Assembly (NCBI GenBank): GCA_965243415.1
Contig: OZ251549.1
Span: 2,555,632 to 2,619,631, forward strand
Source of the DNA: Candidatus Marinacidobacterium sp.
GTDB lineage: Bacteria > Acidobacteriota > Vicinamibacteria > Marinacidobacterales > Marinacidobacteraceae
Direction: 5' to 3'
Length of the DNA: 64,000 nt
Part shown: piece by piece, positions 11,450 to 57,218 of the stretch
Position numbering within the stretch: position 1 is the stretch's first letter
Layout of the letters: every line of letters begins with the position of its first letter
Notes under the pieces: generated by a model
What the model was told of the DNA's origin: nothing
The model's database searches: none
The model's input: only the letters and a program-made list of their open reading frames with translations
Translations under genes and position numbers: made by a program

Positions 11450-11692
11450 GGCGGCGCCGAACGATATGCGACCGGCGCTCCCCGGCGCGCCCTTCGGGGG
11501 CGGCCGCGCCCGGGGGACGGACGGGCCCTCCGCGGAGGGGTTCCACGGCGGCGCCGCCGCGGGCAGAGGGGAACCGGGGCGGCGCCGGGGGAAGGGGGAC
11601 GGGGCTCCGGGCCGTCTCGACGAGGCCGCCCGGCGGTCGCGGCCGCGCCCCGGCCGCCCGTCGTCGAGCCCGTCCGATCGGTGCTCCCGCTC

Positions 11693-13850: not shown

Positions 13851-13895
13851 GAGCCCCGAACCGCGCGATCTCTTCGCTGGGAAGGATGGTTCTCC

Positions 13896-23082: not shown

Positions 23083-23170
23083 TCCGTCGTGAGTCCCGAG
23101 TCCGACCCGACGGGCCGCCGCGATCCGGCAGCCGCCATCCGTTCCGCCGCCGGGCGGCCGGGAGCGGGCG
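23083..23170. repeat. degenerate direct duplicate (~75% identity) of the first ~90 nt of tsaC, placed just after the xerD stop
   Basis: gtgagtcccgagtccgac...gccgccgcgatccg...cgggcggggtcgcggtccctcc compares with 23379- gtgagtccgaagtccgac...gccgccgcgatccg...cgggcggggtcgccctctat. The minus... plus-strand ORF 23005..23382 translates the copy as VVSPESDPTGRRDPAAAIRSAAGRPGAGGVAVPP versus TsaC VSPKSDGARLPGAGGPDLAAAIRSAAERLRAGGVALYP. Confidence 0.5.
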
Positions 23171-23378
23171 GGGTCGCGGTCCCTCCGCTCCGGACCTCCG
23201 GCGGTGTCGGCGCCGAACCGCGTTCGCCGGATCGCGGCGTCGCCGGGTTCCGGCGGCACCGGCCCCGGGTGTCGCGCCGGCGGCTCCGGACTGCGGCCGA
23301 CGGGGAACGGGCGGGGAACGGGCGTCGATTCCCGGAGCGCGCCGCGGCGCGGGGCCACCCGGGGGAGAGCGGGCGCCG

Positions 23379-39812: not shown

Positions 39813-39916
39813 CCGCCTGACCTCCCACCGGCCGGCGCCCCTCCCGCGCCGGCCGACCCCTCTCGACCTCGCGCCCCGACCCGGGAACGCTCCCCCCGAC
39901 CGCCGGCCAGCGCGCC

Positions 39917-40541
39917 TTATTCGGACCCCGGCTCGCCGACCGTCCCCCGGATGACCTCCCGCGCCCGCCGAACGAACGCCCGCAACGAGTGGTCGTTCCT
40001 CCCGGCCCGGTGCAGATCCATCTCGGCCACGACCTTCGGCGCGAACCCGCTGTCGTCGGAGCGACCGACCGGGTAGCGGCCCTTCCGAAGCGCATCCGCC
40101 AGGAGTTTCTGGTAGTGGCCGCGCTCGCACTTCTCCTGCCCGAGAGTCGGAGCGTGCCCAGGACCGGGCCGAGGCTCGAGGAGTCCGCCGGATACCACCG
40201 CTCGATATGCGGATCGGGACACGCCGCGACCAGCCGGTCGGCGAACGCCGCACCCGTGGTGTCCTCGATCACCTGGCGAGAGGCCGAGAAGGTGGAGCAG
40301 TTGCCGTCGATCGCCACGACGACCAGGTCCGGGGTGGGCTCGTCGGCCGGGACCGTAGATCGGGTCGTCCGGTACATCCCGTACTCGCGGAGCGCGACGC
40401 CGTGGCCACCACGCGCAGAGATCACCCTGATCCGCGCCGCTGCCCCCGCCTCTTCGCACAGGCCATGGAGCATCGGCGTGAGGAACAGTTGGTGCGCGCG
40501 GTCCTCGGCGAACACGACCACCTGGAGGCGGTTACTCGTTG
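39917..40541 (-). pseudogene. DUF4276-like protein, copy A, disrupted by a 1-nt frameshift near 40150 (or sequencing error in a G run)
   Basis: N-terminal frame gives VVVFAEDRAHQLFLTPMLHGLCEE...DLVVVAIDGNCSTF...AACPDPHIERWYPADSSSLGPVLG. The C-terminal part continues in another frame: TLGQEKCERGHYQKLLADALRKG...FAPKVVAEMDLHRAGRNDHSLRAFVRRAREVIRG. Both halves align to the intact paralog at 42505..43125. Start is GTG ~40541 or ATG 40587. Confidence 0.6.
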
Positions 40542-41794
40542 ATGTAGCCACGCAGCAACAGACCCTCGAACAATCCCTCTTCCCCACGGTTGGACAGAGC
40601 CTGCACGAGTTTGGGATCGTTCAACAGCGCGTCGGGAATCTCGAAGACCTCGACGGAGGTGTCCGACTCCGTCTCCCCGTTCGGGCGCCGCACATTCAGA
40701 AGCACGATATCGTCAGGATCGTCGGCCTTCCGCTGTTCCTGAAGCACGGTCGCCACGAACAGGGGTGAGTGTGTCGCGACGATGACCTGCCGTCTTCCGT
40801 GTTCGGCCAAGGACAGGAGGAGGTGGGCGAGATCTTCGACCCGGCGCGGATGAATTCCGTTCTCCGGTTCCTCGATGGTCACCAGACCGCCGACCTGCCA
40901 CGGATTCACGGACATGGCGCAGAACGCCAGGGCCCGGAGCGTGCCGTCGGACAGAAGGTGGGTCGAATAATCGATGCCTCCCTGGCGTGCGATGATGTTG
41001 AGCGTGCCGCGCATCGTGTCGAGGTCCATCGTGAGATCCTCGATGGAAGGAACGAGACCGCGGAGTTTCAGCACGAGAGACTCGTAGTAGTGCGGATGGG
41101 AGGCCCTGAGTTTGTACAGGAACGGCGCGATGGTCTGTCCATTCACGCCGATGTCGCGAACATCCGCCGGCCCGGTGGAGGCGCGCATGAGTGTCCTCGG
41201 TTCGAGGGCGTAGGGCCGCCAGGTTCGGAGTTCGGAGCGCAGCGCATCGAGGCGGTCGTAGCCGGGCCCGGACACACTGAGATCGGACACGATGGAGTGG
41301 CTGAGTCCGATCTCTTCGTATCGGGATGGGCGCGAACGCCGAGTCGAACGGACCAGGAGGCTCCCGTTCCGACTCTCGATGGTCGCCCTTGCGCCGCGGG
41401 GTCGCGTCTGGCAAAAGTACTCGTCGTCGACGACCGGAAATCCGGATGGCTGTGCGAGGCGGGTGGCGAGGCGGTAACGGAAAGAGCGCGGATCGGTCGC
41501 GATGTCGGCCTCGAGGCAAAAGGTCGGGTCGGGACAGTCCGGCTGCAACAGGGCCGGGAGCCCTCCGGAGGGGAAGGTGAAGGCCTCGAAAGGGTGTCCG
41601 CGGATGGGGAGGGGGCCGTCGAGAGCGTCGTGGATGGTCCGGGCGCTCGGCACCGCGGCCAGGAAGTTGACGGCTTCGAGGATGTTGCTCTTCCCGGCGG
41701 CGTTCGGCCCGAAGAGGACCGTCAGGCACCGGCCGGGCTCGATCGTGACTTCGCGGAGCGACTTGAAGCCACGGACGGTCAGGCGTTCGAGCAT
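40532..41794 (-). CDS. AAA_21/AAA_15-type ABC ATPase (SMC/RecF-like P-loop; OLD/Gabija/Septu-ATPase-like), copy A
   Basis: MLERLTVRGFKSLREVTIEPGRCLTVLFGPNAAGKSNILEAV is Walker A. LSDGTLRALAF is the signature motif, IEEPENGIHP Walker B/D-loop, and VATHSP the H-loop. 420 aa. Confidence 0.8.
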   Translation of the reverse strand: MLERLTVRGFKSLREVTIEPGRCLTVLFGPNAAGKSNILEAVNFLAAVPSARTIHDALDGPLPIRGHPFEAFTFPSGGLPALLQPDCPDPTFCLEADIATDPRSFRYRLATRLAQPSGFPVVDDEYFCQTRPRGARATIESRNGSLLVRSTRRSRPSRYEEIGLSHSIVSDLSVSGPGYDRLDALRSELRTWRPYALEPRTLMRASTGPADVRDIGVNGQTIAPFLYKLRASHPHYYESLVLKLRGLVPSIEDLTMDLDTMRGTLNIIARQGGIDYSTHLLSDGTLRALAFCAMSVNPWQVGGLVTIEEPENGIHPRRVEDLAHLLLSLAEHGRRQVIVATHSPLFVATVLQEQRKADDPDDIVLLNVRRPNGETESDTSVEVFEIPDALLNDPKLVQALSNRGEEGLFEGLLLRGYINE

Positions 41795-42267
41795 GGCAGT
41801 GCTTCAGGCATTGGATTCGCCGGATGGTAGCGCCGGCCCGGCCGGCGGAGGCGATGGCCGACTTCGGCGGGCGGCCGGCGACTCGGGGAGGCCTGGCTGC
41901 CGTGCGCCTCGGCAGCGATGGCGACAGCGGCCCGCTGTCGGGTACGCCGGGGAGGTGCGCGGCGCCACGGGAGCGGGAGATCCGGAGGCGCGTCCGGCCC
42001 TCCGCAATGGGCCGGCGGAGGCCCGAATCACGGGGCGACCCGTCGGCAAGTGCCATCGGCGTGCTCGGACCGCTACGGAGGGTCCCGAGGTGGCGCCGGC
42101 GGGGAACCTCGGACCGCAGGGCGCAGCGGTCGGAAACCGGGTGGCCGAGGTGGACCTTTGCCGCGGCGAGTCGACGCAGAGGGGCCATCACCCGGAGCGA
42201 CCGCTCGATGCGGCGAGTTCCGGCGCCGGAAGGCTGGGGCGCGATCCCGGGTACGGCCGGAGCGATA

Positions 42268-42440
42268 ACGAACGGCGTGGAAATCCACCTCCCCATCGCC
42301 CCGCGCAAACCCCGTGACCTCCGCCACGAACTCCTCGAAGTGATCGTGGAGATCGATTGCCTCGTCCGTGGGATGGACGAGGAATGGGAATCGCCCCCGA
42401 GTCCGACGACGCGGTCACCACCGAAAACCGCTGCCGGCCG
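42268..42440 (+). pseudogene. degenerate duplicated remnant of the 3' end of the S9 peptidase gene
   Basis: Translates NGVEIHLPIAPRKPRDLRHELLEVIVEIDCLVRGMDEEWESPP. The peptidase C-terminus at 39605-39800 is NGVETHLYIAPREPHGWRELRHELFKVNVEIDWFERHVRGMDYEWETAP. It marks the left edge of the duplicated module. Confidence 0.6.
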
Positions 42441-42504
42441 CCCGACCACTCCGGCCGGCGCCTCCGCGCCGGCCGGCCCGAATGAGCCGGGGTCGCTGAC
42501 CGGT

Positions 42505-43125
42505 TCAGTCCGCCGACAGCGATCGCTGCCGGAGGAACTTCTTTCTCAGGTCCGTGAGGAACGCTCCGAGCGACCGGCAGTTCTTGCCCGCCCGGTACAG
42601 CCGCATCGCCGCCACGACTTCGGGTGCGAACTCCCGTCCGTGCAGCAGCGTCGGCGGATGGCCGGCGCCCCGGATCGTGTCGGCCAGGATCTTCTTGTAG
42701 TGGGCTCGCTCGCACTTCTGACGACCGAGGGAAGGCGCCCTGCCGACGACGGCGGCGAACGACTGCGGATCGGCCATGAGCCATCTCTCGATGTGGGGGT
42801 CCGGGCACGCCGCGACCAACCGGGGCGCGAAGGCCGGCAGCACGATCTCCTCGATACTCTGCTTCGTCTTGGCGAAGGTCGCACAGTTCCCGTCGAGCGC
42901 GACGACCACGAGGTCGAACGGCGCCACCGCCGCCGGGAACAACGCTGCCGTCTCCTGCCACGCCCGGAACTGGCTGAGCGCCCGCGGGCGCCCGCCCTCC
43001 GCCGACAGGATCTGCGTGGCGACCGACACCTCCAGCGATTCCGCGACCCGACCCACCAGCGGAACCAGGAATGCGGCGTGGGCGGAGTCTTCGGCGAAGA
43101 CGGCGACCCGAATCGGATCAGGCAT
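42505..43125 (-). CDS. DUF4276-like protein, copy B (intact, 206 aa)
   Basis: MPDPIRVAVFAEDSAHAAFLVPLV...DLVVVALDGNCATF...AACPDPHIERWLMADP...GRQKCERAHYKKILADTIRG...FAPEVVAAMRLYRAGKNCRSLGAFLTDLRK. The conserved acidic N-terminus, DGNC and CPDPHIERW blocks are shared with copy A. Family name is from recollection of DUF4276 and not verified. Confidence 0.65.
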   Translation of the reverse strand: MPDPIRVAVFAEDSAHAAFLVPLVGRVAESLEVSVATQILSAEGGRPRALSQFRAWQETAALFPAAVAPFDLVVVALDGNCATFAKTKQSIEEIVLPAFAPRLVAACPDPHIERWLMADPQSFAAVVGRAPSLGRQKCERAHYKKILADTIRGAGHPPTLLHGREFAPEVVAAMRLYRAGKNCRSLGAFLTDLRKKFLRQRSLSAD

Positions 43126-43255
43126 CGAGGATTCCCCGGAGGATCAGGGATTCGACGACCCCCTGCTCTCCCCGGTCCGCCAGCGCGCCGGCGATCCGCT
43201 CGTCCTCGAACAGGGCGTCCGGAGGATCGAACGGCTTGACGGTCGTTCGATCGTC

Positions 43256-44368
43256 CTACGACCCGACCTGGAGGAGCCGTACGCCGTCGGGGTCGTCACT
43301 CCGGCGTTTCGCCCGGACGATCCGGCCCACGAAGAGCGGAGAATGCGTGGTGACGATGACCTGGCGGTCCTGCTGCTCGCCGAACGACAGGAGGAGGTCG
43401 GCGATCTGCTCCAGCCGACGCGGATGCACTCCGTTCTCCGGTTCCTCGATGCCGACGAGTCCCTCCTCGATCCACGGATTCCTGGTGAGGGCGCACAGCG
43501 CGAGGATCCGCAGTGTCCCTTCGGACACGATCCGGGAGGAGTACTCGATCCCGTCCTGCCGGAAGAGGAGATCGAGGTTTCCTCTCCGTTCGTTCAGGGC
43601 CAGGGTGAAGGCGTCCATGCCGGGTACGAGTTGCCGGAGCATTCGGACGACGGAGGCGTAGTACTTCGGCTTCGCGGCATGCATTCGGTACAGATACGAA
43701 CCGATGAATTCGCCGTGAACGCCGATGTCGAGGAAGTCCCCCGGAAACTGTTCGGCCCGCATACGGAACTGCGGTTCGACGGCATAGATTCGCCAGCGCT
43801 CGAACTCCCTGCGCAAGCGATCCAGTGCTTCGTATCCGGCGCCGGAGTAGCGGCGATCGGACAGGATCGAACCGCGGGCGCCGACGGATTCCCGTTTGGG
43901 TTCGCGCGATCCCTTCCGGCGTATGAGGATCTGACCATCGCGCGTCCGGATGCTGGGGAAACGGTCGGGGTCGGGCCGCGTCTCTGCCAGGTATTCGTCG
44001 GCGACTCCGATGGCGCCGATACGCGGGTCCAGCCGTGCAGAGAGGCGATACTCGTACGCGGTGGCACTCGTCGAGATGGCGGCTTCCAGGGTGAAGGACG
44101 GGCTGGCCCGGTCCGCTTTCAGAAGCGCGGGAAGACCCTCGTCCGGATAGGAAAAACACTCGGCGGGGTGGCCGCGGACCGGGGAATTCGCACCCAACGC
44201 TTCCTGGAGGGTGGGGGCGCGACTCATGACGGACAACACCTGGGCCGCCTCCAGGAGGTTGCTCTTCCCGGCGGCGTTCGGCCCGAAGAGGACCGTGAGG
44301 TGTCTTCCGGGCTCGATCGTGACCTCGCGGAGCGACTTGAAGCCGCGGACGGTCAGGCGTTCGAGCAT
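43256..44368 (-). CDS. AAA_21/AAA_15-type ABC ATPase, copy B
   Basis: Internal ATG gives MLERLTVRGFKSLREVTIEPGRHLTVLFGPNAAGKSNLLEAA, then SEGTLRILAL, IEEPENGVHP and VTTHSP. Roughly 50-60% identical to copy A. The ORF-track N-terminal 40 aa are low-complexity. Confidence 0.8.
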   Translation of the reverse strand: MLERLTVRGFKSLREVTIEPGRHLTVLFGPNAAGKSNLLEAAQVLSVMSRAPTLQEALGANSPVRGHPAECFSYPDEGLPALLKADRASPSFTLEAAISTSATAYEYRLSARLDPRIGAIGVADEYLAETRPDPDRFPSIRTRDGQILIRRKGSREPKRESVGARGSILSDRRYSGAGYEALDRLRREFERWRIYAVEPQFRMRAEQFPGDFLDIGVHGEFIGSYLYRMHAAKPKYYASVVRMLRQLVPGMDAFTLALNERRGNLDLLFRQDGIEYSSRIVSEGTLRILALCALTRNPWIEEGLVGIEEPENGVHPRRLEQIADLLLSFGEQQDRQVIVTTHSPLFVGRIVRAKRRSDDPDGVRLLQVGS

Positions 44369-44405
44369 CGGGCAGCGCGTTCTCGACCGCAGGGTAGCCC
44401 GGGGG

Positions 44406-45581
44406 TCAGCGAGTGGTGGCGGGCGAAGCCAAGGCGGTTTCGGCGAGGCGGCGGGCGGCTTCGGGGAGGCCCTGGCCGCTCTGGACATTCGCGGTCAGCG
44501 CCACGGCGAGGCCGCGTTCGGGGAGGCGGAGGAGGTGGGTGGTGCCGCCGGTGGCGCCGCCGGAGTGGGAGATCCAGAGGCCCGCCGCGTCCTCGGCGAT
44601 CCGCCAGCCGAGACCGTACTCACTCAGCGTGCCGTCGGCGAGTTCCATCGGGGTCGTCATCCGGCCGTGGGTTTCGGCGGAGATGATCGCCCCGGCGTCC
44701 AGCGCCAGCGCGAACCGCACCAGGTCCGGCGCGGTGGAGATCATGCCGCCGCCGGCCCACTTGATGGAGAGGTCGGCGAAGGGCGCGTTCCGCACCCAGG
44801 GGGCGTCCTCCGACTTCACATACTGGCGGACGCGGTTCGGCACGATGTCGCCCTGGTGTTCGAGGTAGGTCGCCTCCATCCCGGAGGGCCCCCAGAGGTT
44901 GTCCTGCAGGTAGTCGTCGAAGGACTGCCCGGCGACGGACTCCACCATTCCGGCGAGCAGGTTGTAGGCGTAGGTCGAGTAGGAATACTGCGTTCCCGGC
45001 TCGAAGAGCAGCGGGTCGTCGCGGAAGATGGCGGTGCCCGCTTCCACGGTGTCGAAGTGGTCTTTCAGGTCGAACTCACCCTCGTTGTAGTGGCGGATCC
45101 CGGAGGTATGCGTCATCAGGTGGCGCACGGTGACCGGGTATTCCTTCTCCGGGAACGACGGGAAGTACTCCTGGATCGTCCGGTCTATGTCGAGGACCCC
45201 CTGTTCGGCGAGGTGCATGATCGCGGTGGCGGCGATGGGCTTCGAGATGGAGGCGATCCGGTACACGCTGTCCGCGGTCGCCGGGACGCCGTTCTCGATG
45301 TCGGCGAGACCGGAGCCGCCGCTCCAGGTCAGCACGCCGTCCACCGCCACCGCGGCGGAGAGGCCCGGGCTGCCGGCGGCGTCGCGCGCTTCCTCGACGA
45401 TGGCGGCGAACTCCAGGTCGCGCTGGGCGGTCGGATCCGGCGCCGAACAGCCGACGACGCCCGCCGCGAAGAACGCCGCGAACGCGACCGACGGGAGGGA
45501 GAACGAGGCGAAGCCCCTCGTGGCGGCAGCGCGGGGAACGGCAGTGCGGGAAACGACGGGGCGAATCGGGAGAGCGGTCAT
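44406..45581 (-). CDS. serine hydrolase (class C beta-lactamase/esterase-like) lipoprotein
   Basis: Lipoprotein signal ...FFAAGVVGCSAP. SISK (S-x-x-K) in YRIASISKPIAATAI, a YSN-like YSTYAYN and HSGGATGG. Start ATG verified. ATGA overlap with the upstream dipeptidase stop. Confidence 0.85.
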   Translation of the reverse strand: MTALPIRPVVSRTAVPRAAATRGFASFSLPSVAFAAFFAAGVVGCSAPDPTAQRDLEFAAIVEEARDAAGSPGLSAAVAVDGVLTWSGGSGLADIENGVPATADSVYRIASISKPIAATAIMHLAEQGVLDIDRTIQEYFPSFPEKEYPVTVRHLMTHTSGIRHYNEGEFDLKDHFDTVEAGTAIFRDDPLLFEPGTQYSYSTYAYNLLAGMVESVAGQSFDDYLQDNLWGPSGMEATYLEHQGDIVPNRVRQYVKSEDAPWVRNAPFADLSIKWAGGGMISTAPDLVRFALALDAGAIISAETHGRMTTPMELADGTLSEYGLGWRIAEDAAGLWISHSGGATGGTTHLLRLPERGLAVALTANVQSGQGLPEAARRLAETALASPATTR

Positions 45582-47722
45582 CGGAAATGTCCTCCTGTGG
45601 CGGAAAGGCCGCCGGCGGGTTCGGGGGATGGTTCGGGCGGCGGGCGCGGGATTTCGGAATCGGGGAGAGGGACGGTCGCTGCGCCCCGGACGCGCTCGAA
45701 GTTGCCGCCGAGAACCGCGTCCACCTCGGCGTCGGCGAAACCGGCCTCGGCGAGCGCGGCGAAGTTCTCGTCCTCCCGGAGTCCGGCGCTGTGGGCGGAC
45801 CTGCCGCGCCGGTTGTTCCCGATCCGGATCCGGATGCTGCTGCCTCCGCGAGCGACAGTCCGCCGCACCGGTCGGGGGACGAAGGCGGCCACTGCGGGGA
45901 CCGGACCGCCGCCGACCCGGCCGCCGGCAGGTTCGGGGGATGGTTCGGGCGGCGGACGCTGGGTTTCGGATCCGGGGAGATGGGCGGTCGCCGCAGTCCA
46001 TACCCGCTCGAAGTTGCCCCCGAGGACGGCGTCCACCTCGGCGTCGGCGAAACCGGCTTCGGGGAGCGCGGCGGAGTTCTCGTCCTCCCCGAGTCCGGCC
46101 CCGTGGGCGGACCTGCCGCGCCGGTCGCTCCCGATCCCGATGCTGCTGCCTCCGCGAGCGACAGTCCGCCGCACCGGTCGGGGGACGAAAGCGGCCACTG
46201 CGGGGACCGGACCGCCGCCGACCCGGCCGCCGGCGGGTTCTGGGGATGGTTCGGGCGGCGGACGCCGGGTTTCGGATCCGGGGAGATGGGCGGTCGCCGC
46301 GGTCCACACCCGCTCGAAGTTCCCCCCGAGGACGGCATCCACCTCGGCGGCGGCGAAACCGGCCTCGGCGAGCGCCTCCGCGATGGCTTCGAAGTCCGCC
46401 TCGTCCCCGAACCCTTCGCTGTAGGCGGACATGCCCCGCAGGTCACTCCCGATCCCGGCGCTGCCCGGGCCGCCGAGATCGGTCACGCGCCGCACATGCC
46501 GGGCGAGGTCGGCCACCGTCGGAACCAGACCGGCATTCGGCCAGATCCCGAGGACGCCGCCGGCTTCGGCGATGGCCCGGATCTCCGGATCGCGCAGGTG
46601 CCGGTCGTGCTCGCGCAGCGCGAACGAACCGGTATGGCTGAACACCACCGGCGCGGTGGAGAGCGCCAGCGTGTCCCGGATCGTCTCCGGGTTCGCGTGC
46701 GCCAGGTCGAGGACGATCCCCAGCCGGTTGCACTCGCGCACCACCTCCCGACCGAACTCGGTGAGCCCGCCCGGCGTGTAGGGCCAGGTCTGGATGTGCC
46801 CCAGCCCGTTCGCCCGGAAGTGCACGAGTTGCAGCAGCGCGAGCCCCATTCCGTGGAGTTCCCGCAACCGCTCGATATCTCCTTCCAGCGAGTCCGCGCC
46901 TTCGACCGCCGGGAGGATCGCCAGCGCGCCGGCGTCCCGCGCCCGCCGGGCCTCCGCCGGCGTCCGGACGAAGACCGCGTTCGCCTCGGCGACGGTCCGG
47001 GTCAGCCGCTCGAACCGGTCGAGCGTGTAGGCCCAGGGTTCCCCCGGTTCCGGTCGGCGGTCGCCGGACTCGATCCTCGTTCCGTCACGCAGCACATAGC
47101 CGCCCCGGTAGGGAGTGTCGGTGCTGATCGTCGCCACGACAGCGTCCATGCCGCGGTCGAGATAGCGGGCGATCTCCTCGTCGCTGATCCGCGGCACATT
47201 CGCGCGGTGGAACCGGGACGGATGCGCGTGGATGTCCACCCGCAGCGGCCGTTCCCCGTCCTCCTGCCGCACCCCGGTGCGGTCCTCCGGGAGGACGGCC
47301 CCGACCGGCAGGCCCCGGTGCGCCGGCCCGCCCCCGGCAACGGGTATGGAGCGGGGCATGAAGGGGGGAATGAACGGGGAACCGAAAACGGAACGGGGCC
47401 GCCCCGAAGCAGGGTTCGAAGCAGGCCCCGGCACGACCACCGGAATGAAGGCGGAACCGAATGCGGAACCGCCGACCGAACCGCCCACGAAACCGATTTT
47501 CGTCGAGCCGCCGACCGCCGAACCGCCGGCTGACGAACCGCCCACTGACGAACCGATGGCCGCCGAGCCGCCGCCCGACGAACCGACCGCCGCCGAACCG
47601 ACCGCCCCGCCGAACCCCGCCGCCGCGCCGGCGGAAACCAGCAGGGCCCCGGCGAGCGCCGCCCGCCCACGCCTCCGCGACCCGAACCGCTGACGCCCGG
47701 CCGCCGGCCCTCCCCCCGACAC
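45578..47722 (-). CDS. membrane dipeptidase (peptidase M19) with candidate Tat signal, Gly/Ser-rich linker and triplicated C-terminal segment
   Basis: M19 core DIHAHPSRF, VHFRANGLG, LDLAHANPE, VFSHTGSFAL and IGSDLRG. Upstream in frame are RRRGRAALAGALLVSAGAAAG (Tat-like) and a GGS-rich linker. A GTG start is proposed at 47722. The 3' ~780 nt are three in-frame tandem copies of the last ~86 codons. Confidence 0.7.
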   Translation of the reverse strand: MSGGGPAAGRQRFGSRRRGRAALAGALLVSAGAAAGFGGAVGSAAVGSSGGGSAAIGSSVGGSSAGGSAVGGSTKIGFVGGSVGGSAFGSAFIPVVVPGPASNPASGRPRSVFGSPFIPPFMPRSIPVAGGGPAHRGLPVGAVLPEDRTGVRQEDGERPLRVDIHAHPSRFHRANVPRISDEEIARYLDRGMDAVVATISTDTPYRGGYVLRDGTRIESGDRRPEPGEPWAYTLDRFERLTRTVAEANAVFVRTPAEARRARDAGALAILPAVEGADSLEGDIERLRELHGMGLALLQLVHFRANGLGHIQTWPYTPGGLTEFGREVVRECNRLGIVLDLAHANPETIRDTLALSTAPVVFSHTGSFALREHDRHLRDPEIRAIAEAGGVLGIWPNAGLVPTVADLARHVRRVTDLGGPGSAGIGSDLRGMSAYSEGFGDEADFEAIAEALAEAGFAAAEVDAVLGGNFERVWTAATAHLPGSETRRPPPEPSPEPAGGRVGGGPVPAVAAFVPRPVRRTVARGGSSIGIGSDRRGRSAHGAGLGEDENSAALPEAGFADAEVDAVLGGNFERVWTAATAHLPGSETQRPPPEPSPEPAGGRVGGGPVPAVAAFVPRPVRRTVARGGSSIRIRIGNNRRGRSAHSAGLREDENFAALAEAGFADAEVDAVLGGNFERVRGAATVPLPDSEIPRPPPEPSPEPAGGLSATGGHFR
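45600..46400. repeat. ~258-bp tandem repeat x3 inside the 3' end of the M19 dipeptidase ORF
   Basis: Protein-level copies: ...EADFEAIAEALAEAGFAAAEVDAVLGGNFERVWTAATAHLPGSETRRPPPEPSPEPAGGRVGGGPVPAVAAFVPRPVRRTVARGGSS, then ...AGFADAEVDAVLGGNFERVWTAATAHLPGSETQRPPPEPSPEPAGG..., then ...AGFADAEVDAVLGGNFERVRGAATVPLPDSEIPRPPPEPSPEPAGG. DNA copies are ~90% identical. Confidence 0.8.
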
Positions 47723-47804
47723 GGCTACGACGACCGCTCCTCCGCGGCGAGGTCCGGGGGCGCGCCGAGCCTCGCTCCGAACCCGCCCCCCGACACCGCT
47801 GCGA

Positions 47805-49205
47805 CTACTGCTCGTCGGTCGCGACTTCCGGCAGCACCACCCGCGCCACGCCGTCCCGGACCTCGAACTTCGTCCCGTACGGCTCCGAAAGCCGCACCAC
47901 ATCCTGCAGGATCTTGTCGGCGAGCGCGCCCTTCGCCATCATCGGCCGGCCCCGCACCGAAACCGGTTTCCCGTGGCCGAGCGTGATCGGATGGAGCGTC
48001 AGGTTCGCCAGTTGCGACCCGCGCCACTCGGGAACCGCGACCACCGCTTCCCAGATCTCCGGGATCGCCGGGAAACCCACGGTGTCGTTCCGATACCGGG
48101 CGGCGTTGAAGTCGGCCAGCCCGTCCATCTCCCCCAGCCCGTATCGCTGGTAGTTCTCGTACGGCAGCCGCTCCAGCGTCTCGTTCTGGAAGAGGAAGTC
48201 CCCGAGGCTGTAGAGGATCGGCGCCCCCTTGTAGATCTCGATGGCGCGCAGCACATGCGGCCCGTGTCCCACGAACACCGACGCCCCGGCGTCCACCATC
48301 GCCCGGGCGAAAGTAACCAGGAACTGCGCCGGCAGGAAACGGCTCCCGGCGCCCTCGTGGGCGTGGATGGTCACCATCACATACTCGGCCAGGCGGCTGG
48401 CGTTGTTCACCACCGAGGCGATCTCCGCCATATCGCCGGCGTGCGGCTCGGTGCGGATCCCGGGGGCGTCGGCGACCTCGAACCGCTGGCGCAGGAAGGT
48501 CAGCGTGTCGCCGCTCTCCGGGGGATCCATATCCAGGCCGCGCATCGTTTCGCGCACGCCTTCGATCTGCTCCCGCGTCACCAGGTAGGTCGTGGTATGC
48601 CGCAGCGGGTTCAGCCCCGGCCGCGCCGGGATGTCGTCCCGCGACCGGCCGGCCATCGAATGGAGCGGGAAGGTCGAGGACACCGAGATCAGCGCCAGCC
48701 GCCCGTGCTTGGTCTCGACGAACTTCGCCGCCCGCGCTTCGGCCAGACTCCCGCCGACCCCGGCCGCGACGATGCCCGCTTCGCGCACATATTTCTGCGT
48801 CATCAGCATCGCCGGCGGCCCGTAGTCCCCGGAGTGGTTGTTCGCCAGCGATCCCAGGTCGAAACCGGCCCAGGCGAACTCGGAGACCAACTCCGGCTGG
48901 GCGCGCATGTAGGTGCCGCCGCTGGAACTCATCGGGTAGGTCTCGTAGTCGTGGAACAGCATCTCCACATTGGTGAAGGCCAGGTCCGCGCCCCGGATGA
49001 GTTCGATCATCTCCAGGAACTCCGGCTCCTCGTACACGCTCATCTTCCGGGTGATGATCGAGTCGCCGGTGAGCGCCAGCCGCAGCCCGTCCTGGGCGCC
49101 CACGGCGGCGGCGAGGCCCAGGCAGCCGCAGAAGGCGAGGGCGAAGGCGGCGAACCGCCGGAACCGGGAGCGCGGGTCCGCGCCGTCACGGGTGATCTCA
49201 GTCAT
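47805..49205 (-). CDS. CapA-family (PGA_cap) metallophosphatase-like protein with signal peptide
   Basis: MTEITRDG...FAAFALAFCGCLGLAAAVGAQD is a signal. LALTGDSIITRK, GFDLGSLANNHSGDYG and MVTIHAHEG match the CapA/calcineurin-like fold. ATG verified at 49205. Confidence 0.8.
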   Translation of the reverse strand: MTEITRDGADPRSRFRRFAAFALAFCGCLGLAAAVGAQDGLRLALTGDSIITRKMSVYEEPEFLEMIELIRGADLAFTNVEMLFHDYETYPMSSSGGTYMRAQPELVSEFAWAGFDLGSLANNHSGDYGPPAMLMTQKYVREAGIVAAGVGGSLAEARAAKFVETKHGRLALISVSSTFPLHSMAGRSRDDIPARPGLNPLRHTTTYLVTREQIEGVRETMRGLDMDPPESGDTLTFLRQRFEVADAPGIRTEPHAGDMAEIASVVNNASRLAEYVMVTIHAHEGAGSRFLPAQFLVTFARAMVDAGASVFVGHGPHVLRAIEIYKGAPILYSLGDFLFQNETLERLPYENYQRYGLGEMDGLADFNAARYRNDTVGFPAIPEIWEAVVAVPEWRGSQLANLTLHPITLGHGKPVSVRGRPMMAKGALADKILQDVVRLSEPYGTKFEVRDGVARVVLPEVATDEQ

Positions 49206-49209
49206 GGTG

Positions 49210-50945
49210 CTCTGCCCTCCGGGGAACGACAGTGGGAACAGCGAGTGTATCCGCCCCGGCATCGGCCCCGCATCGGCCCCCGCCCCGGCCCCGTTGTCCG
49301 CCTCTTCCCCGGCGCTCCCGAACCCGTCCCCGGCGCGTCCCCCGGGCCGGTTCCCCCGCCTCCGCCCCGTCGCGCGGCCCCTCCCCGGCAGCCGCGCCGC
49401 ACCTCCACGACCTGCCCGGCGTCCCCGCAACCGCGTCTTCCCCGGCGCTCCCGAACCCGTCCCCGGCGCGTCCTGCCGGGCCGGATCCCGCTCCCGACCC
49501 GCCGCGCGCCGCGACTCCTGACAGCGATGTCGCACCCCGACGACGAGACCCGGCCCCCGCCGCCCGGCCCCCCGACGACGACGCCCGGCGTCCCGGCAAC
49601 GGCTTTCCTCCCGGCGCTCCCGAACGCGGCCCGAACACTTCCTCACCGGGCCGGATTCCGCTCCCGACCCGCCGCCCGGCCCCTCCCCGGCTCCCGCCGC
49701 ACCTCCGCCGCCAGCGCCCCCTCCGCCGCCAGCGCCCCCGCCGCCGTCAGCGCCCCCGATACCACCCGGCGCGCCGGCGTCCGCCGGTTCCCTCCCAACT
49801 CCCGGCTCACCGCCGTGCGGCTCATCCCCGTCTCCGGGTAGTGGCGGCCCGGAACCCGCCGCTCACCTCCGACCCTCTCGCCCTCTCGGCCGGGAACGAA
49901 TGGACTGCACCCCTCGCCCCCCCGGATCGGAACCTCCGCCGCGCCGGCCCCGAGCCGAAGAGCGGGAAATCTCCACTGCCGGGCGACACTCCGCAACCGC
50001 CTCCTTCCCCGGCGCTCCCGAACCCGTCCCCGGCGCGTCCTCCCGGCCCGGGTCCCCGTTCCCGACCGCCGCCCGCGCCAACCGCCGAACAGCCGCGTCG
50101 CACCCCGAAGACGAGGCCCCGGCGCCCGACGACGCCCGGTCCCCCGACGACGACGCCCCGCGCCCGCTGCCCCGCTGTCCCGGCTGTCGTCCGGGCACCC
50201 GCCCGCCCCGACTCCCGACCCCGGCCCTACCGCCGCCGGGAGTCGAGCGGGGGCCGGTCGCCGAGGACCCCGCTCAGGGACGAAATCCGACCCCCGCGCT
50301 GCATCGAGTGCCGCTGTCGCCGCCTCCACCTTGCGCCGGTTCCCGGGCATCCCGGCCCCCCGCCGCGCTGCCCCCGCTACCGCGCCACTCCCGGAACTGC
50401 GCCGGCCCTCGCCGACTTCCGGCGCCGGCGCTCGTCCGGACCCCGGCGGCCCCGACTCCCGCCGCCGGCGCCCGCCCCGACTCCGCGGCCCTGACTCGCC
50501 GCCCCGACTCCCCACCCCGGCCCTACCGCCGCGCGGCGATCGGGCGGGGGCCGGTCGCCGGGAACGCGGCTCAGGGACGAAGTCCGACCCCCATGCCGCT
50601 CCGAGTTCCGCTGTCGCCGCCTCCACACTCCGCCGGTTCCCGGGCATCCCGCCCGCCGCCGCGCCACCCCGCCGGTCGCGCCACCCCCGCGGCCACGCTG
50701 CCCCATCGCCGAGCCGGCCCCCGTCGTCGCGCCGCTCCCGCCGGTCGTTCCACCTCCGCTGCCGCGCCACCCCGCCGGTCGCGCCACTCCCGTCATCGCG
50801 CCATCTCCGCCGCCACCCCGCCCCCCGGCGCCGCCCGATGACATCCGGCGCCCGACGATGACGCCCGACGCTTCCCGGCGCCCGGCGCCCCGCCCCGACT
50901 CGACGGCCCTGACGCCCGGCGCTGGCCCCGCCCGACCGATCCCGA
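49210..50945. repeat. 1.7-kb GC-rich (~80%) non-coding block with at least five dispersed/tandem copies of a ~130-bp element (TTCCCCGGCGCTCCCGAACCCGTCCCCGGCGCGTCC...CCGACCCGCCGC) and related sub-repeats
   Basis: Copies start near 49306, 49438, 49600, 50000, 50330 and 50630. The only ORFs are repetitive Pro/Arg/Gly artefacts on both strands (e.g. the GMPGNRR(S/K)VEAATA repeats). Confidence 0.7.
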
Positions 50946-50948
50946 CCC

Positions 50949-52388
50949 CTACCGCCGGTAGTCGAGCGGCGGGGGCCGGTCGCCGAGGAGCGGCTCGTAC
51001 ACGAAATCCGGCCCCTGCGCCGCCTCGAGTTCCGCCTGCGCCGCCTCGATCCGCGCCGGATCCCGGAACAGGTCGGCGGCCGTCCGCGCCAGCACCTCCG
51101 CCGCCCGATGCATCCCCTTCAGCCCGATGCTCATCCCCCCGGCGGCCACCGCCTGCCAACTGTGCGCCGGGGTCCCCGGAACCCAGGTCGCCGTCCGGAA
51201 CTGCGCCGTCGGCACCACCCAACTCACATCCGCCACATCGGTCGAACCGCCGGCCGGCTTCCGCTCCCACTCGGCCACCTCCTCCTGCGACCCGATCGGC
51301 CGCGGCCGGGCCAGCGACTCCTGGATCTCCTCGGCGAACGCCCGCTCCTCGTCGGTGTAGGCGAACCCCCCGACCGCCTGCAGGTTCTCGTGGAGCAGCC
51401 GCCCGATCGTCTCGTTCGGCAGGAGGTTGTAGAGCCCGTGGATGATCTCGTGCTCGACCTCGGTCCCGGTGCCCAGCGCCGCGCCCTCCGCCGCCTTCAG
51501 GATGCGCTCCCAGTTCGACCGCGCCACCTCCACCGACGGGTGCCGGTTGTAGTAATAGACCTCGGCGAAGTTCGGCACCACATTCGGCGCCTCGCCGCCC
51601 CGCGTGATCACATAGTGGATGCGGCTCCGCTCGTGGACATGCTCCCGCATCAGGTTCACCAGGAAGTTCATCGCCTCCACCCCGTCGAGCGCCGACCGCC
51701 CCTGGTCCGGCGCCCCGGCGGCGTGCGCCGAAACCCCCCGGAAGCGGAACTTGGCCGACAGGTTCGCCAGCGAGTCCCCCGGACTGGCGTCGTTCCGGTC
51801 GCCCGGGTGCCAGGCCAGCACCGCGTCCACCTCGGCGAACAGCCCCTCGCGCACCAGGTACACCTTCCCGGCGCCGCCTTCCTCCGCCGGCGTCCCGTAC
51901 ACCCGGATCCGCCCCTCGCTCCCGGTGCGTTCCAGCCAGTCCTTCGCCGCCAGTCCGGCCGCCACCGAAGCGGTCCCGAAGAGGTGGTGGCCGCAGGCGT
52001 GCCCGGCGCCGACCCCCTCGCGCTCCTCCGGCCGGGGCGCCGCCGTTTGGCTGATGCCGGGCAGGGCGTCGAACTCGGCCAGGATCCCGACCACCGGGCC
52101 GCCGGAACCCCACTCCGCCACGAACGCCGTCGGCATCCCGGCGACCCCGGCCTCCACCTCGAACCCGGCGGCGCGCAACTGCTCCTGCAGCAGGCCGGAA
52201 CTCTTCTCCTCCTGGTAACCGACCTCGGCCCACTCCCAGATGCGGAGCGCCACCTCGTCGAAGTCGGTGCGCTGCGCCCCGAGGAAGTCGCCGATCAGCG
52301 CGCGGTCGTCGCCGTCCTGGGCCGCGGCCGCTGCCGGAGCGAGAACGAGGGCCGTCAGGCCGAGGGAAAGGAGCGCGGATCGGAACAC
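50949..52388 (-). CDS. M20D-family amidohydrolase (AbgB/hippurate-hydrolase-like) with signal peptide
   Basis: GTG start with SD GGAGG at 7 nt gives VFRSALLSLGLTALVLAPAAAAAQDG. VGAGHACGHHLFGTASVAAG is the M20D metal-binding signature. Confidence 0.85.
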   Translation of the reverse strand: MFRSALLSLGLTALVLAPAAAAAQDGDDRALIGDFLGAQRTDFDEVALRIWEWAEVGYQEEKSSGLLQEQLRAAGFEVEAGVAGMPTAFVAEWGSGGPVVGILAEFDALPGISQTAAPRPEEREGVGAGHACGHHLFGTASVAAGLAAKDWLERTGSEGRIRVYGTPAEEGGAGKVYLVREGLFAEVDAVLAWHPGDRNDASPGDSLANLSAKFRFRGVSAHAAGAPDQGRSALDGVEAMNFLVNLMREHVHERSRIHYVITRGGEAPNVVPNFAEVYYYNRHPSVEVARSNWERILKAAEGAALGTGTEVEHEIIHGLYNLLPNETIGRLLHENLQAVGGFAYTDEERAFAEEIQESLARPRPIGSQEEVAEWERKPAGGSTDVADVSWVVPTAQFRTATWVPGTPAHSWQAVAAGGMSIGLKGMHRAAEVLARTAADLFRDPARIEAAQAELEAAQGPDFVYEPLLGDRPPPLDYRR

Positions 52389-55698: not shown

Positions 55699-55915
55699 CG
55701 CTCCGCGCCCCCGACCTTCCCGCCGGACCAGGCGCGGAAGGCCAGGCGGCGCCCCTCGAGGGCGTGGCCCTCGCAATTCCGTTGTGTGCGACCGGTGCCG
55801 GAACGGCAGTTGAACGACGGAGGCGCATGAAGTACTTTGCAATTTCACCTGCAGGTCGCGGACGCCGATGGTGGCGACCGGCAAGCGGTCTCGACCCAAC
55901 GGAGGAACCCGACCC

Positions 55916-56206
55916 ATGAAGAAGACCAAGACACTCCCCGCCACTCCGCCGGTCACGCCGGAAGAGGCGACGGGCTCGAACTGGCTCCGCCTCCGGAAGC
56001 GTCCCGTGGCGAACCTCACGGAGGACCAGATGGAGGATGCCGCCGGCGGCCATCCGCACCCGGCCACCTGCGAGCCGACCTGCCCGCAGACCTGCTGCCC
56101 GACCTGCCCGGAGACCTGCGGCCGGGGCTGCCCGGAGCCGAGCGACCGCTACTCCTGCTCGCCCACCTGCCCCGTCGAGGACACCTGCGACCTGGATATC
56201 TGCTAG
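55916..56206 (+). CDS. Cys/Thr/Pro-rich peptide with Bacteroidetes-type double-glycine leader (candidate RiPP precursor), paralog 1
   Basis: SD GGAGG-N10-ATG. MKKTKTLPATPPVTPEEATGSNWLRLRKRPVANLTEDQMEDAAGG | HPHPATCEPTCPQTCCPTCPETCGRGCPEPSDRYSCSPTCPVEDTCDLDIC. The leader fits the GG-Bacteroidales pattern (MKKxxK...L.L.K..IANL.D.EM....GG). The core has 11 Cys. Confidence 0.6.
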   Translation: MKKTKTLPATPPVTPEEATGSNWLRLRKRPVANLTEDQMEDAAGGHPHPATCEPTCPQTCCPTCPETCGRGCPEPSDRYSCSPTCPVEDTCDLDIC

Positions 56207-56921: not shown

Positions 56922-57218
56922 ATGAAGAAGGTCAAGACCCCGCTGGTCCCTACGGCCAAGGTGGTGAACTCGAACTCCCTCCGCATCAGGCGGCGCTCGG
57001 TGGCGAACCTCACGGAGAACCAGATGGGGGACGCCGCCGGCGGTCACCCGCACCACACGTGCGAGCCGACCTGCCCGGCCACCTGCTGCCCCACCTGCCC
57101 GGACACGTGCCCGCGCGGCTGCCCGGTGGTGGAGCCCCCGAGCGCCGGTGACACCTGCCGCGGCAGCACCTGCGACACCTGCGACACCTGCATCAGCTGC
57201 TACGACGCCTGCGAGTAG
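56922..57218 (+). CDS. Cys/Thr/Pro-rich peptide with double-glycine leader (candidate RiPP precursor), paralog 2
   Basis: SD AAGGAGA-N9-ATG. MKKVKTPLVPTAKVVNSNSLRIRRRSVANLTENQMGDAAGG | HPHHTCEPTCPATCCPTCPDTCPRGCPVVEPPSAGDTCRGSTCDTCDTCISCYDACE. Followed by a GGCGCCT...AGGCGCC hairpin. Confidence 0.6.
   Translation: MKKVKTPLVPTAKVVNSNSLRIRRRSVANLTENQMGDAAGGHPHHTCEPTCPATCCPTCPDTCPRGCPVVEPPSAGDTCRGSTCDTCDTCISCYDACE

What the first reader, a model, noticed from the sequence alone, without database searches (positions are those of the whole stretch)
49210..50945. 1.7-kb repeat-dense, ~80% GC non-coding block between CapA and the M20 amidohydrolase
An unusually long intergenic region for a compact bacterial genome. 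It holds at least five copies of a ~130-bp element and shorter sub-repeats (ccggttcccgggcatcccgcc). No ORF has credible composition. It could be a family of REP/MITE-like elements, an ncRNA array or a recombination hotspot.
Basis: seen in the sequence. Interest (0 to 1): 0.55.

Follow-up and report, generated by a model that had tools for sequence, protein, structure and literature searches.

The report
Spacer built from local tandem duplications
The 1.7-kb GC-rich gap between two genes is not a mobile-element family or an RNA gene array but decaying leftovers of repeated local duplications, including two dead copies of the tail of the neighbouring peptidase gene, in a genome unusually prone to such duplications.

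Summary
Positions 49206-50948 are a 1743-nt non-coding spacer with 80.3% GC and 52% C on the + strand, and 84% of it is covered by direct repeats internal to the locus.

- **Right half:** it holds two frameshifted copies, plus one fragment, of the last ~145 nt of the M20 peptidase gene. Each full copy includes the TAG stop and ~100 nt of downstream sequence.
- **Left half:** it holds four copies, not five, of a 125-150-nt unit, interleaved with 12-20-nt and 69-nt minisatellites.

Evidence on what the repeats are:
- Neither unit occurs elsewhere in the 64-kb window, in 160 related loci, or (30-mer core) in the metagenome collection.
- There are no terminal inverted repeats, no fold signal, no Rfam hit and no codon periodicity.
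- The pseudo-tails differ from the gene equally at all three codon positions.
- Their AT-to-GC bias predicts an equilibrium GC of 0.79-0.84, which matches the spacer.
- Seven relatives keep the M20-CapA-M19 gene order with 60-680-nt, repeat-free spacers.

The window carries 8.8% tandem repeats against 0-1.5% in relatives, and it has other duplicated gene ends (M19, a VapB-like gene, a TsaC-like gene).

Verdict: nested local tandem duplication followed by neutral decay. The locus itself is ordinary. The lineage-wide duplication load is mildly interesting.

The parts
49206..49250 (-). Unique CapA leader: GGAGG ribosome-binding site and an ATACACTCGC motif, the ancestral part of the spacer
   Evidence: This stretch is not covered by any locus-internal repeat. 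The motif CCATAC(A/T)CTCGC...GGAGG...ATG is shared with seven relatives.
49249..49293 (.). 12-nt minisatellite (ATCGGCCCCGGC, 3.8 copies)
   Evidence: TRF
49268..49424 (-). u1, copy 1 of the 125-150-nt unit (core CCCGGCGCTCCCGAACCCGTCCCCGGCGCG)
   Evidence: nhmmer E = 1e-23. Exact 30-mer core at 49308. Alignment.
49412..49560 (-). u2, copy 2. Similarity to u4 extends to 49593.
   Evidence: nhmmer E = 5e-32. 81.7% identity to 49976-50165 over 191 nt, E = 7e-41.
49581..49724 (-). u3, copy 3, the most diverged
   Evidence: nhmmer E = 1.8e-22. Family D1 at 77% identity.
49694..49757 (.). 18-nt minisatellite (CCTCCGCCGCCAGCGCCC, 3.1 copies, 94% matches)
   Evidence: TRF
49815..49975 (.). The only sizeable unique stretch (161 nt, lower GC). 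Origin unknown.
   Evidence: Not covered by repeats. No similarity to related loci with the low-complexity filter on. No Rfam match.
49976..50125 (-). u4, copy 4. It abuts the downstream part of pseudo-tail A.
   Evidence: nhmmer E = 3.3e-27. Exact core at 50008.
50119..50420 (-). Pseudo-tail A: a decayed copy of the M20 3' end (about 125 nt of coding homology, pseudo-stop cta at 50227-50229) plus ~100 nt of its downstream sequence
   Evidence: 72.6% identity to 50845-51066, E = 7e-22. 82% identity to copy B, E = 2e-53. nhmmer E = 2e-66. Indels break the frame, and differences fall 14/14/11 over codon positions.
50449..50720 (-). Pseudo-tail B: second decayed copy of the M20 3' end (pseudo-stop cta at 50523-50525) plus downstream sequence
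   Evidence: 73.6% identity to 50864-51091, E = 2e-22. nhmmer E = 6e-60. Differences fall 16/15/16 over codon positions.
50652..50812 (.). 17-nt / 69-nt minisatellite (CCCGCCGGTCGCGCCAC, 9.4 copies). It includes a partial third copy of the unit's 5' extension at 50760-50804.
   Evidence: TRF. Families D5, D8 and D14. nhmmer E = 0.022.
50845..50948 (-). True downstream flank of M20, the source of the downstream part of the duplicated unit
   Evidence: Aligned with 50119-50228 and 50451-50525.
50949..51104 (-). Intact 3' end of the M20 peptidase gene, the parent of pseudo-tails A and B
   Evidence: Pfam Peptidase_M20 and M20_dimer. The C-terminus ...GPDFVYEPLLGDRPPPLDYRR* is the same as in relatives.

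Best explanation
The block is a locally generated, nested set of tandem duplications that is now decaying neutrally. It is not a functional element.

**Proposed history**
- The ancestral M20-CapA spacer was short, as in relatives.
- A tandem duplication with one breakpoint about 145 nt inside the M20 gene and the other in the downstream spacer left M20 intact. It added a promoterless, 5'-truncated pseudo-tail with its own stop codon.
- That copy diverged and was then duplicated again, giving copies A and B.
- A spacer segment (the u unit) was duplicated to four copies.
- Short 12-20-nt and 69-nt motifs expanded into minisatellites.

**Decay**
- Free of selection, the copies picked up indels and substitutions at all codon positions.
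- They drifted under the genome's AT-to-GC bias to about 80% GC, with extra G on the sense strand.

**What is shown and what is inferred**
- Shown: the homology, the order of events implied by the identities, the neutral substitution pattern, the confinement to this locus, and the absence of the repeats from relatives.
- Inferred: the molecular mechanism. I propose replication slippage or template switching, followed by unequal recombination between G/C-rich direct repeats. This may be favoured by the many G-quadruplex-type runs on the sense strand.
- Also inferred: that the only consequence is to separate M20 from CapA and to leave a copy-number-unstable stretch.
For: - **Pseudo-tails of M20.** Gene against copies is 73% identical (E ~1e-22). 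Copy A against copy B is 82% identical (E = 2e-53). Both copies keep the TAG and share derived changes.
- **Neutral decay.** Indels break the frame. Differences fall 14/14/11 and 16/15/16 over the three codon positions.
- **GC content explained.** AT-to-GC changes occur at 0.40-0.48 per AT site, and GC-to-AT changes at 0.09-0.11 per GC site. This gives an equilibrium GC of 0.79-0.84, against 0.803 observed.
- **Local and nested.** 84% of the spacer is in locus-internal direct repeats, with periods of 12, 13, 17, 18, 20, 69, 133, 169, 297 and ~425 nt. Both units are confined to the locus.
- **Absent from relatives.** Seven relatives keep the M20-CapA-M19 order with 60-680-nt spacers and no such repeats.
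- **General tendency of this genome.** Tandem repeats cover 8.8% of the window against 0-1.5% of 12 related loci, including one of equal GC.
- **Other duplicated gene ends, of both kinds.** M19 3' end in three copies; VapB-like C-terminal domain copies; a pseudo-5' end of a TsaC/Sua5-like gene. This is what random tandem duplications across gene-spacer borders predict if only those that keep one intact gene survive.
- **No sign of a function.** No coding periodicity, no Pfam match, no Rfam match, no fold signal, and no sigma-70-type promoter or intrinsic-terminator consensus.
Against: - Bacteria normally delete useless DNA, so 1.7 kb of persistent junk is unexpected and could hint at a function I cannot see.
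- G-quadruplex-type motifs on the sense strand are somewhat enriched: 13 observed against 7.9 +/- 1.9 in dinucleotide shuffles. The repeat copies are not independent, so this is weak.
- Each pseudo-tail keeps a strong stem-loop across its pseudo-stop. For copy B the z-score is -2.36.
- A 21-nt block, GCGGGGGCCGGTCGCCGAGGA, is identical between the gene and copy A. This could reflect gene conversion or constraint.
- Only 64 kb of this genome was available, so genome-wide dispersal of the units could not be excluded directly.
- No transcription data exist.
Confidence: 0.75

Rival explanations
1. The array is a functional cis-acting or RNA element. It could be a G-rich, G-quadruplex-forming long leader of CapA. 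It could be a series of tandem terminator or insulator hairpins after M20. It could be an array of small RNAs.
For: - 13 of the window's 24 minus-strand G-quadruplex-type motifs lie in this spacer, above the shuffle expectation.
- A stem-loop spanning the stop codon is present in the gene, in both copies and in relatives L001 and L081.
- The array lies between two co-oriented genes.
Against: - No Rfam match at E <= 1.
- Fold z-scores of the u units range from -0.74 to +0.83 on both strands.
- The covariation term is positive.
- There is no terminator or promoter consensus.
- Relatives manage with 60-150-nt spacers.
- The substitution pattern is neutral.
- The G-quadruplex-type motifs are inherited with the repeat copies, so they are not independent events.
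Confidence: 0.1
2. The pseudo-tails are scars of mobile elements that integrated site-specifically into the 3' end of M20. Such elements carry a replacement gene tail, as islands that target tRNA or protein gene ends do. On this reading the cargo has since been lost.
For: - Each copy keeps the stop codon and the downstream flank.
- Relatives L002, L004 and L006 carry different 500-680-nt inserts with small ORFs in this same spacer, so the site is variable within the clade.
Against: - The spacer has no integrase, transposase or other Pfam-recognisable ORF, and the nearest genes have none either.
- The copies are head to tail, 297-425 nt apart, with no cargo between them.
- Copies A and B share derived changes, so one arose from the other and not from separate integrations.
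- The inserts in relatives have no att-like direct repeats longer than 10 nt.
- The copies are no closer to any orthologue's gene tail than to the window's own gene.
- The same locus and the same window show duplications at many scales that involve no gene end.
Confidence: 0.06
3. The units belong to a dispersed REP/BIME- or MITE-like family, and are clustered at this locus by chance or by targeting.
For: - The position is extragenic, just after a stop codon.
- The composition is GC-rich.
- A hairpin containing GTAG spans the stop codon.
Against: - No copy is found outside the locus in 62 kb of the same genome.
- No copy is found in 160 related loci.
- The 30-mer core is absent from the metagenome collection.
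- No terminal inverted repeats flank the units.
- The units are 125-300 nt long and one of them is plainly the tail of the adjacent gene.
- The TAG in the hairpin is simply the stop codon, and it is TGA in most relatives.
Confidence: 0.03
4. The block encodes a repetitive low-complexity protein (Pro-rich on the + strand, or Gly/Arg-rich on the - strand). Alternatively, it is an assembly artefact.
For: - Long ORFs are open in several frames.
- Some repeat periods are multiples of three: 12, 18, 69 and 297 nt.
Against: - All three phases have a similar, high GC, with no coding periodicity.
- Other periods are not multiples of three: 13, 17, 20, 133 and 169 nt.
- There is no Pfam match.
- Open frames are expected at 80% GC.
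- Copies differ by 14-30%, with indels and shared derived changes. Assembly errors do not produce this.
- The gene order matches seven independent genomes.
Confidence: 0.04

Closest known systems
Bacterial tandem segmental duplications and the VNTR/minisatellite arrays they create (slippage, template switching, unequal recombination). Basis: general knowledge.
   Same: - The copies are head-to-tail direct repeats confined to one locus.
- Repeat periods are nested, from 12 nt to ~425 nt.
- The copies are homologous to the adjacent unique sequence.
- Copies differ in age, at 70-94% identity.
   Different: - The scale is unusual for a bacterial spacer: 1.7 kb, 84% repeat, with 8.8% tandem repeats across the window.
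- The copies are old and diverged. They are not the near-identical, unstable amplifications usually studied.
Gene remnants, i.e. truncated pseudogene fragments in intergenic DNA
   Same: - There is clear homology to a parent gene.
- Frameshifts are present.
- Substitutions are spread evenly over codon positions.
- The pseudo-tails have no start codon or 5' part.
   Different: - The parent gene is intact and lies immediately adjacent.
- The fragments are extra tandem copies of its tail. They are not the relic of a lost gene.
MIRU-VNTR loci of mycobacteria (40-100-nt tandem units in intergenic regions of high-GC genomes). Basis: general knowledge.
   Same: - These are tandem intergenic repeats between co-oriented genes in a high-GC genome.
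- Copy number is likely to be variable.
   Different: - MIRUs are a dispersed family with related units at many loci, whereas these units are unique to one locus.
- MIRUs are not derived from the neighbouring gene.
REP/BIME elements and MITEs
   Same: - The location is extragenic, after a stop codon.
- The sequence is GC-rich.
   Different: - The units are not dispersed.
- There is no defining palindrome or terminal inverted repeat.
- The units are much longer than REPs.
- One unit is a copy of a gene tail.
Silent partial gene cassettes (Neisseria pilS, with a G-quadruplex-dependent pilE recombination site) and DGR template/variable repeats. Basis: general knowledge.
   Same: - Promoterless copies of a gene's 3' part lie next to the expressed gene.
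- G-quadruplex-type motifs are nearby.
   Different: - The copies are frameshifted.
- Mismatches are of every kind and are not specific to adenines.
- No reverse transcriptase was seen nearby.
- The expressed C-terminus is nearly invariant among relatives, so nothing is being diversified.

Membership tests
Local tandem segmental duplication / minisatellite array | Direct, head-to-tail copies confined to one locus | tested here: met
   All copies are in direct orientation at spacings of 133, 169, 297 and ~425 nt. A profile search finds no copy elsewhere in the window.
Local tandem segmental duplication / minisatellite array | Copies derive from adjacent unique sequence | tested here: met
   Units A and B align with the M20 3' end plus its downstream flank. 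The source of the u unit was not identified.
Local tandem segmental duplication / minisatellite array | Absent from the orthologous site in relatives (a derived, lineage-specific state) | tested here: met
   Seven syntenic relatives have 60-680-nt spacers with no such repeats.
Local tandem segmental duplication / minisatellite array | Copy-number polymorphism between strains | not testable with these tools
   No close strain was found. The best relatives share 85% amino-acid identity in M20. The window's proteins are not on record.
Pseudogene fragment | Homology to a functional gene together with loss of coding constraint | tested here: met
   Frameshifting indels are present, and differences fall 14/14/11 and 16/15/16 over codon positions.
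REP/BIME | Short imperfect palindrome forming a stable hairpin | tested here: not met
   u units have fold z-scores of -0.74 to +0.83 on both strands. No arm pairs lie within units.
REP/BIME | Many dispersed extragenic copies in the genome | tested here: not met
   There are no copies in the other 62 kb of the window. The core is absent from related loci and from the metagenome collection. Limit: the whole genome was not available.
REP/BIME | Associated RAYT transposase gene in the genome | not testable with these tools
   Only a 64-kb window was available.
MITE | Terminal inverted repeats and target-site duplications around each copy | tested here: not met
   Only three inverted pairs occur in the locus, and none flanks a unit.
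Structured ncRNA family or array | Match to a known family, or a conserved structure supported by covariation | tested here: inconclusive
   There is no Rfam match. The covariation term is +1.12 kcal/mol and z-scores are near 0. Four related copies give little statistical power.
Diversity-generating retroelement (TR/VR pair) | Mismatches confined to template adenines | tested here: not met
   69-72 mismatches of all twelve kinds; only 11-13 have A in the copy.
Diversity-generating retroelement (TR/VR pair) | Reverse transcriptase encoded nearby | tested here: not met
   The Pfam-scanned genes between 37.7 and 63.3 kb show no reverse transcriptase. The rest of the window was not scanned.
Integrative-element att duplication at a gene 3' end | Recombinase and cargo between the duplicated gene tails | tested here: not met
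   No Pfam-recognisable ORF lies in the spacer. The tails are 297-425 nt apart.
Silent-cassette antigenic or phase variation | Expressed gene tail is variable or mosaic | tested here: not met
   The C-terminal 20 residues are nearly identical in seven relatives. The copies are frameshifted.

The most novel reading that the evidence does not exclude
This Vicinamibacteria-like lineage may have an unusually active, possibly mechanistically specific, process that copies gene termini together with the adjacent spacer in tandem. The process could be coupled to stalled replication or to transcription termination at hairpin- and G-quadruplex-rich gene ends, or it could follow the loss of a repair or helicase function. 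On this reading the genome accumulates 'junk' intergenic DNA on a scale rare in bacteria, and this locus is its most advanced example. The supporting observations are 8.8% tandem repeats in 64 kb and at least four duplicated gene ends.
Probability: 0.2. Interest if true: 0.55.

Novelty: new member of a known kind. Interest (0 to 1): 0.3.

Why it matters
**For annotation**
- The block should not be called a mobile-element family, an RNA gene array or a gene.
- The two M20-like stretches are pseudo-tails.
- The long open frames are artefacts of 80% GC.

**For biology**
- The locus gives a small natural experiment. Dead copies of known origin show the neutral substitution spectrum of this genome: strongly AT-to-GC, with an equilibrium near 80% GC and extra G on the sense strand.
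- Wider point: this uncultured Acidobacteriota lineage tolerates or generates far more tandem duplication than its relatives.
- If that holds genome-wide, it would be a useful case for studying how bacterial spacers grow despite the usual deletion bias.

Tried and rejected
- **Source genome.** An exact-protein look-up of two window proteins found nothing on record, so the whole genome could not be searched.
- **Closer strains.** Scans of the genome and metagenome collections with the M20 protein gave no relative closer than 85% amino-acid identity. Copy-number variation could not be examined.
- **Metagenome scan for the u core.** The 30-mer gave 0 hits.
- **Known RNA families.** Rfam at gathering thresholds and at E <= 1 gave no match in the region.
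- **Promoter and terminator consensus scan.** It found 0 sites.
- **Structure of the u units.** Folding and covariation gave no signal.
- **Coding potential.** Pfam on five long ORFs gave no match.
- **DGR reading.** Rejected on the mismatch spectrum.
- **Integrative-element reading.** There is no recombinase, and the inserts in relatives have no att-like repeats.
- **Foreign origin of the pseudo-tails.** The copies are no closer to any orthologue's gene tail (about 72-77% identity) than to the window's own gene.
- **The 161-nt unique stretch.** tblastx against the related loci gave only low-complexity noise, and nothing with the filter on.
- **GGATCC at duplication breakpoints.** The motif occurs 43 times in the window, so it is not special.
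- **u unit as a relic of the M19 array.** nhmmer E-values are 0.67-3.2, which is not significant.
- **Literature.** No paper mentions the closest named genus. A search on tandem duplication and gene fragments in bacterial intergenic DNA found nothing describing this pattern.
Full report
**Observation**

- The flanking genes are both on the - strand.
  - CapA (Pfam PGA_cap, E = 2.8e-45) runs 47805-49205. Its ATG is preceded by a GGAGG ribosome-binding site.
  - An M20 peptidase (Pfam Peptidase_M20 plus M20_dimer) ends with TAG at 50949-50951.
- The spacer is 49206-50948, 1743 nt. It has 80.3% GC and GC skew -0.295, which is 52% C on the + strand. The window as a whole is 72% GC.
- No phase shows the GC3 > GC1 > GC2 signature that is clear in both flanking genes.
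- The five longest ORFs have no Pfam match at E <= 0.1.
- There is no Rfam match at gathering thresholds or at E <= 1.
- There is no sigma-70-type promoter or intrinsic-terminator consensus.
- The block is real, non-coding and repeat-dense. 1459 of 1743 nt lie in direct repeats internal to the locus. The only sizeable unique piece is 49815-49975.

**Anatomy**

The right half is built from the tail of the M20 gene.

- Two stretches, A (50119-50420) and B (50449-50720), align with the last ~145 nt of M20 plus ~100 nt of its downstream flank (50845-51104).
- A is 72.6% identical to the gene and B is 73.6% (E ~1e-22). A and B are 82% identical to each other (E = 2e-53).
- Both copies keep the stop codon context CGGCGGTAGGG. 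Both have frame-breaking indels and share derived changes. One copy therefore diverged from the gene and was later duplicated.
- A fragment of a further copy lies at 50760-50804, inside a 17/69-nt minisatellite.
It is simply the part of A and B that corresponds to ccggatcccggaac in the gene.

The left half holds the u unit and short minisatellites.

- There are four copies, not five, of a 125-150-nt unit: u1 49268-49424, u2 49412-49560, u3 49581-49724 and u4 49976-50125. nhmmer E-values range from 1e-22 to 5e-32 and identities from 70 to 82%.
- The similarity between u2 and u4 runs on into a GACGACGACGCCCGG-type motif. That motif also occurs in the downstream flank of M20 and of copy A. The u units were therefore probably once part of the same larger spacer unit. 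This link is an inference.
- Minisatellites of 12, 13, 18 and 20 nt are interleaved with the units.

**Is it a dispersed family or an RNA?**

- The 30-mer core occurs three times, all at this locus, against 0 expected.
- Profile searches with both units find nothing else in the window. The best outside hit has E = 0.67.
- BLASTN against 160 related loci finds only the orthologous M20 tails.
- The exact core is absent from the metagenome collection.
- No inverted repeats flank the units.
- The u units fold no better than dinucleotide shuffles on either strand, with z-scores from -0.74 to +0.83.
- The alignment fold has a positive covariation term of +1.12 kcal/mol, although four copies give little power.
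- REP/MITE membership therefore fails on the features I could test. The ncRNA reading has no support.

**Evidence of neutral decay**

- I took orthologues as the outgroup. The pseudo-tails then differ from the gene equally at the three codon positions: 14/14/11 for A and 16/15/16 for B.
- AT-to-GC changes occur at 0.40-0.48 per AT site. GC-to-AT changes occur at 0.09-0.11 per GC site. This predicts an equilibrium GC of 0.79-0.84.
- That matches the observed 80.3% and fits the GC3 of 0.90-0.94 in the neighbouring genes.
- On the sense strand, sites where the copy has G and the gene has C (18 and 16) outnumber the reverse (10 and 9). This is in line with the spacer's G excess.
- These counts are small, and A and B share part of their history.

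**Comparison with relatives**

- The closest genomes are uncultured Acidobacteriota labelled Vicinamibacteria or Candidatus Marinacidobacterium. Their M20 proteins are 79-85% identical.
- Seven of them keep the order M20-CapA-M19.
- Their M20-CapA spacers are about 60-680 nt. The short ones hold a hairpin and a conserved CCATAC(A/T)CTCGC...GGAGG...ATG leader. The window keeps that leader at 49206-49250.
- The longer spacers (L002, L004, L006) hold unrelated small ORFs. These inserts have no att-like repeats.
- None of the relatives has local duplications here.

**A property of this genome**

- Tandem repeats cover 8.8% of the window. They cover 0-1.5% of twelve related loci, including one of equal GC.
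- Self-comparison shows many local duplications:
  - The M19 dipeptidase 3' end plus its flank is present in three copies of 306 nt, in frame. The ancestral stop codon is lost relative to orthologues.
  - Several copies of the C-terminal domain of a VapB-like antitoxin lie at 5746-8714.
  - A decayed copy of the 5' end of a TsaC/Sua5-like gene lies just upstream of the intact gene (23111-23311 against 23416-23616).
  - A whole AAA_21 + DUF4276 gene pair is duplicated.
- Both 3' and 5' pseudo-ends occur. This is what random tandem duplications across gene-spacer borders would leave if only those that preserve one intact gene survive.

**Mechanism**

- Shown: local origin, nested duplication, the order of events, neutral decay, and lineage specificity.
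- Inferred: the events arose by replication slippage or template switching and then by unequal recombination between G/C-rich direct repeats.
- The sense strand carries 13 G-quadruplex-type motifs, more than half of the window's minus-strand total. Shuffles give 7.9 +/- 1.9.
- Each gene tail, real or dead, sits in a long stem-loop across its stop codon, as in relatives L001 and L081.
- Such structures are known from other systems to stall replication. Whether they drive duplication here is untested.

**Rivals**

- **Functional cis or RNA element (0.10).** It is not excluded, but it has no positive evidence beyond the G-quadruplex-type motifs and hairpins inherited with the copies.
- **Scars of integrative elements (0.06).** This is contradicted by the missing recombinase and cargo, by the tandem spacing, and by the descent of A and B from one another.
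- **Dispersed REP/MITE family (0.03).** It fails the dispersal, palindrome and inverted-repeat tests.
- **Coding protein or assembly artefact (0.04).** These fail on composition, on periods that are not multiples of three, on the divergence between copies, and on conserved synteny.
- **DGR or pilS-like cassette readings.** These fail on the mismatch spectrum and on the invariant C-terminus.

**Verdict**

- The locus is an ordinary kind of thing, a tandem-duplication-derived array with gene-tail pseudogene fragments, in an unusually exuberant form.
- It is a new member of a known kind and of low to moderate interest.
- The more interesting lead is the genome-wide duplication load. It cannot be assessed from 64 kb.

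Noticed in passing
window 45578-46532 (- strand): The last ~62 codons of the M19 dipeptidase gene plus ~120 nt of flank are present three times, with a 306-nt period and 84-90% identity. All three copies are in frame. The stop codon present in orthologues (...AHLPxxDP*) is missing, so the ORF reads through all three copies to 45578.
   Followed up: partly
window 47381-47804: The CapA-M19 spacer is also expanded, to about 400 nt against about 40-130 nt in relatives. It has 15/30/45-nt tandem repeats, 80% GC and a strong AT skew of up to +0.67.
   Followed up: no
window 5746-8714: There are at least six copies of a ~50-residue domain (...ALEALRRL...EAWIREIRLMREES...). It is the C-terminal part of a VapB-like antitoxin (7479-7838) that precedes what looks like a PIN-type toxin (7102-7482). 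The copies lie singly or in pairs in neighbouring ORFs between two tRNA calls. I inferred the PIN and VapB identities from the sequence and did not check them against Pfam.
   Followed up: partly
window 23111-23311 vs 23416-23616: A decayed copy (69% identity) of the 5' end of a TsaC/Sua5-like gene (23379-24023) lies just upstream of the intact gene. It is a 5'-end counterpart of the M20 and M19 pseudo-tails.
   Followed up: partly
window 11690-13050: About 50 copies of a 14-nt core, GGATCGACCCGATA, are separated by 10-20-nt linkers. The core contains the palindrome ATCG-N3-CGAT. The array lies between the 5' end of a - strand gene and a cobalamin riboswitch (13609-13865). GC skew changes sign at about 13-14 kb. 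It looks like a binding-site, iteron or centromere-like array and not like decayed duplicates.
   Followed up: no
window 36971-37643: Three copies of a 160-nt unit (91% matches) contain the 13-mer GCCATCGGTCGAA in tandem. They lie in the divergent promoter region before an S9 prolyl-oligopeptidase gene.
   Followed up: no
window 55868-56206 and 56922-57218 (+ strand): Two paralogous small ORFs (112 and 98 aa) have a leader ending ...LTE(D/N)QM(E/G)DAAGG and a core rich in Cys, Thr and Pro (TCEPTCPxTCCPTCPxTC...). They look like precursors of ribosomally made, modified peptides. Neither has a Pfam match.
   Followed up: no
window 39338-44654: A two-gene unit, AAA_21 ATPase (OLD/AbiEii-like) plus DUF4276, is tandemly duplicated at about 65% nucleotide identity. 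It is an older, whole-gene example of the same tendency.
   Followed up: partly
window 50880-51000; L001 7410-7555; L081 5265-5390: The M20 stop codon sits inside a long G/C-rich stem-loop formed by the last ~30 coding nt and the first ~30 downstream nt. This holds in the window, in both pseudo-tails and in relatives. z-scores are -1.7 in L001 and L081 and -2.4 in copy B, but +0.24 for the window's own gene and +0.54 for copy A, so the stem-loop is seen in the predicted structure and is not supported by the z-score in those two.
   Followed up: partly
L002 4463-5140; L004 7375-7880; L006 7366-7870: In three relatives the same M20-CapA spacer holds unrelated 500-680-nt inserts with small ORFs. 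In L004 one ORF looks like a ribbon-helix-helix antitoxin and another like the truncated start of an ATPase. The site is therefore a variable segment across the clade.
   Followed up: partly
window 8735-8825: ARAGORN calls a 91-nt tRNA-Pro(CGG) here, but Rfam at gathering threshold reports only the tRNA at 5173-5255. The call overlaps a coding-like ORF (8741-9154) and may be a false positive.
   Followed up: no
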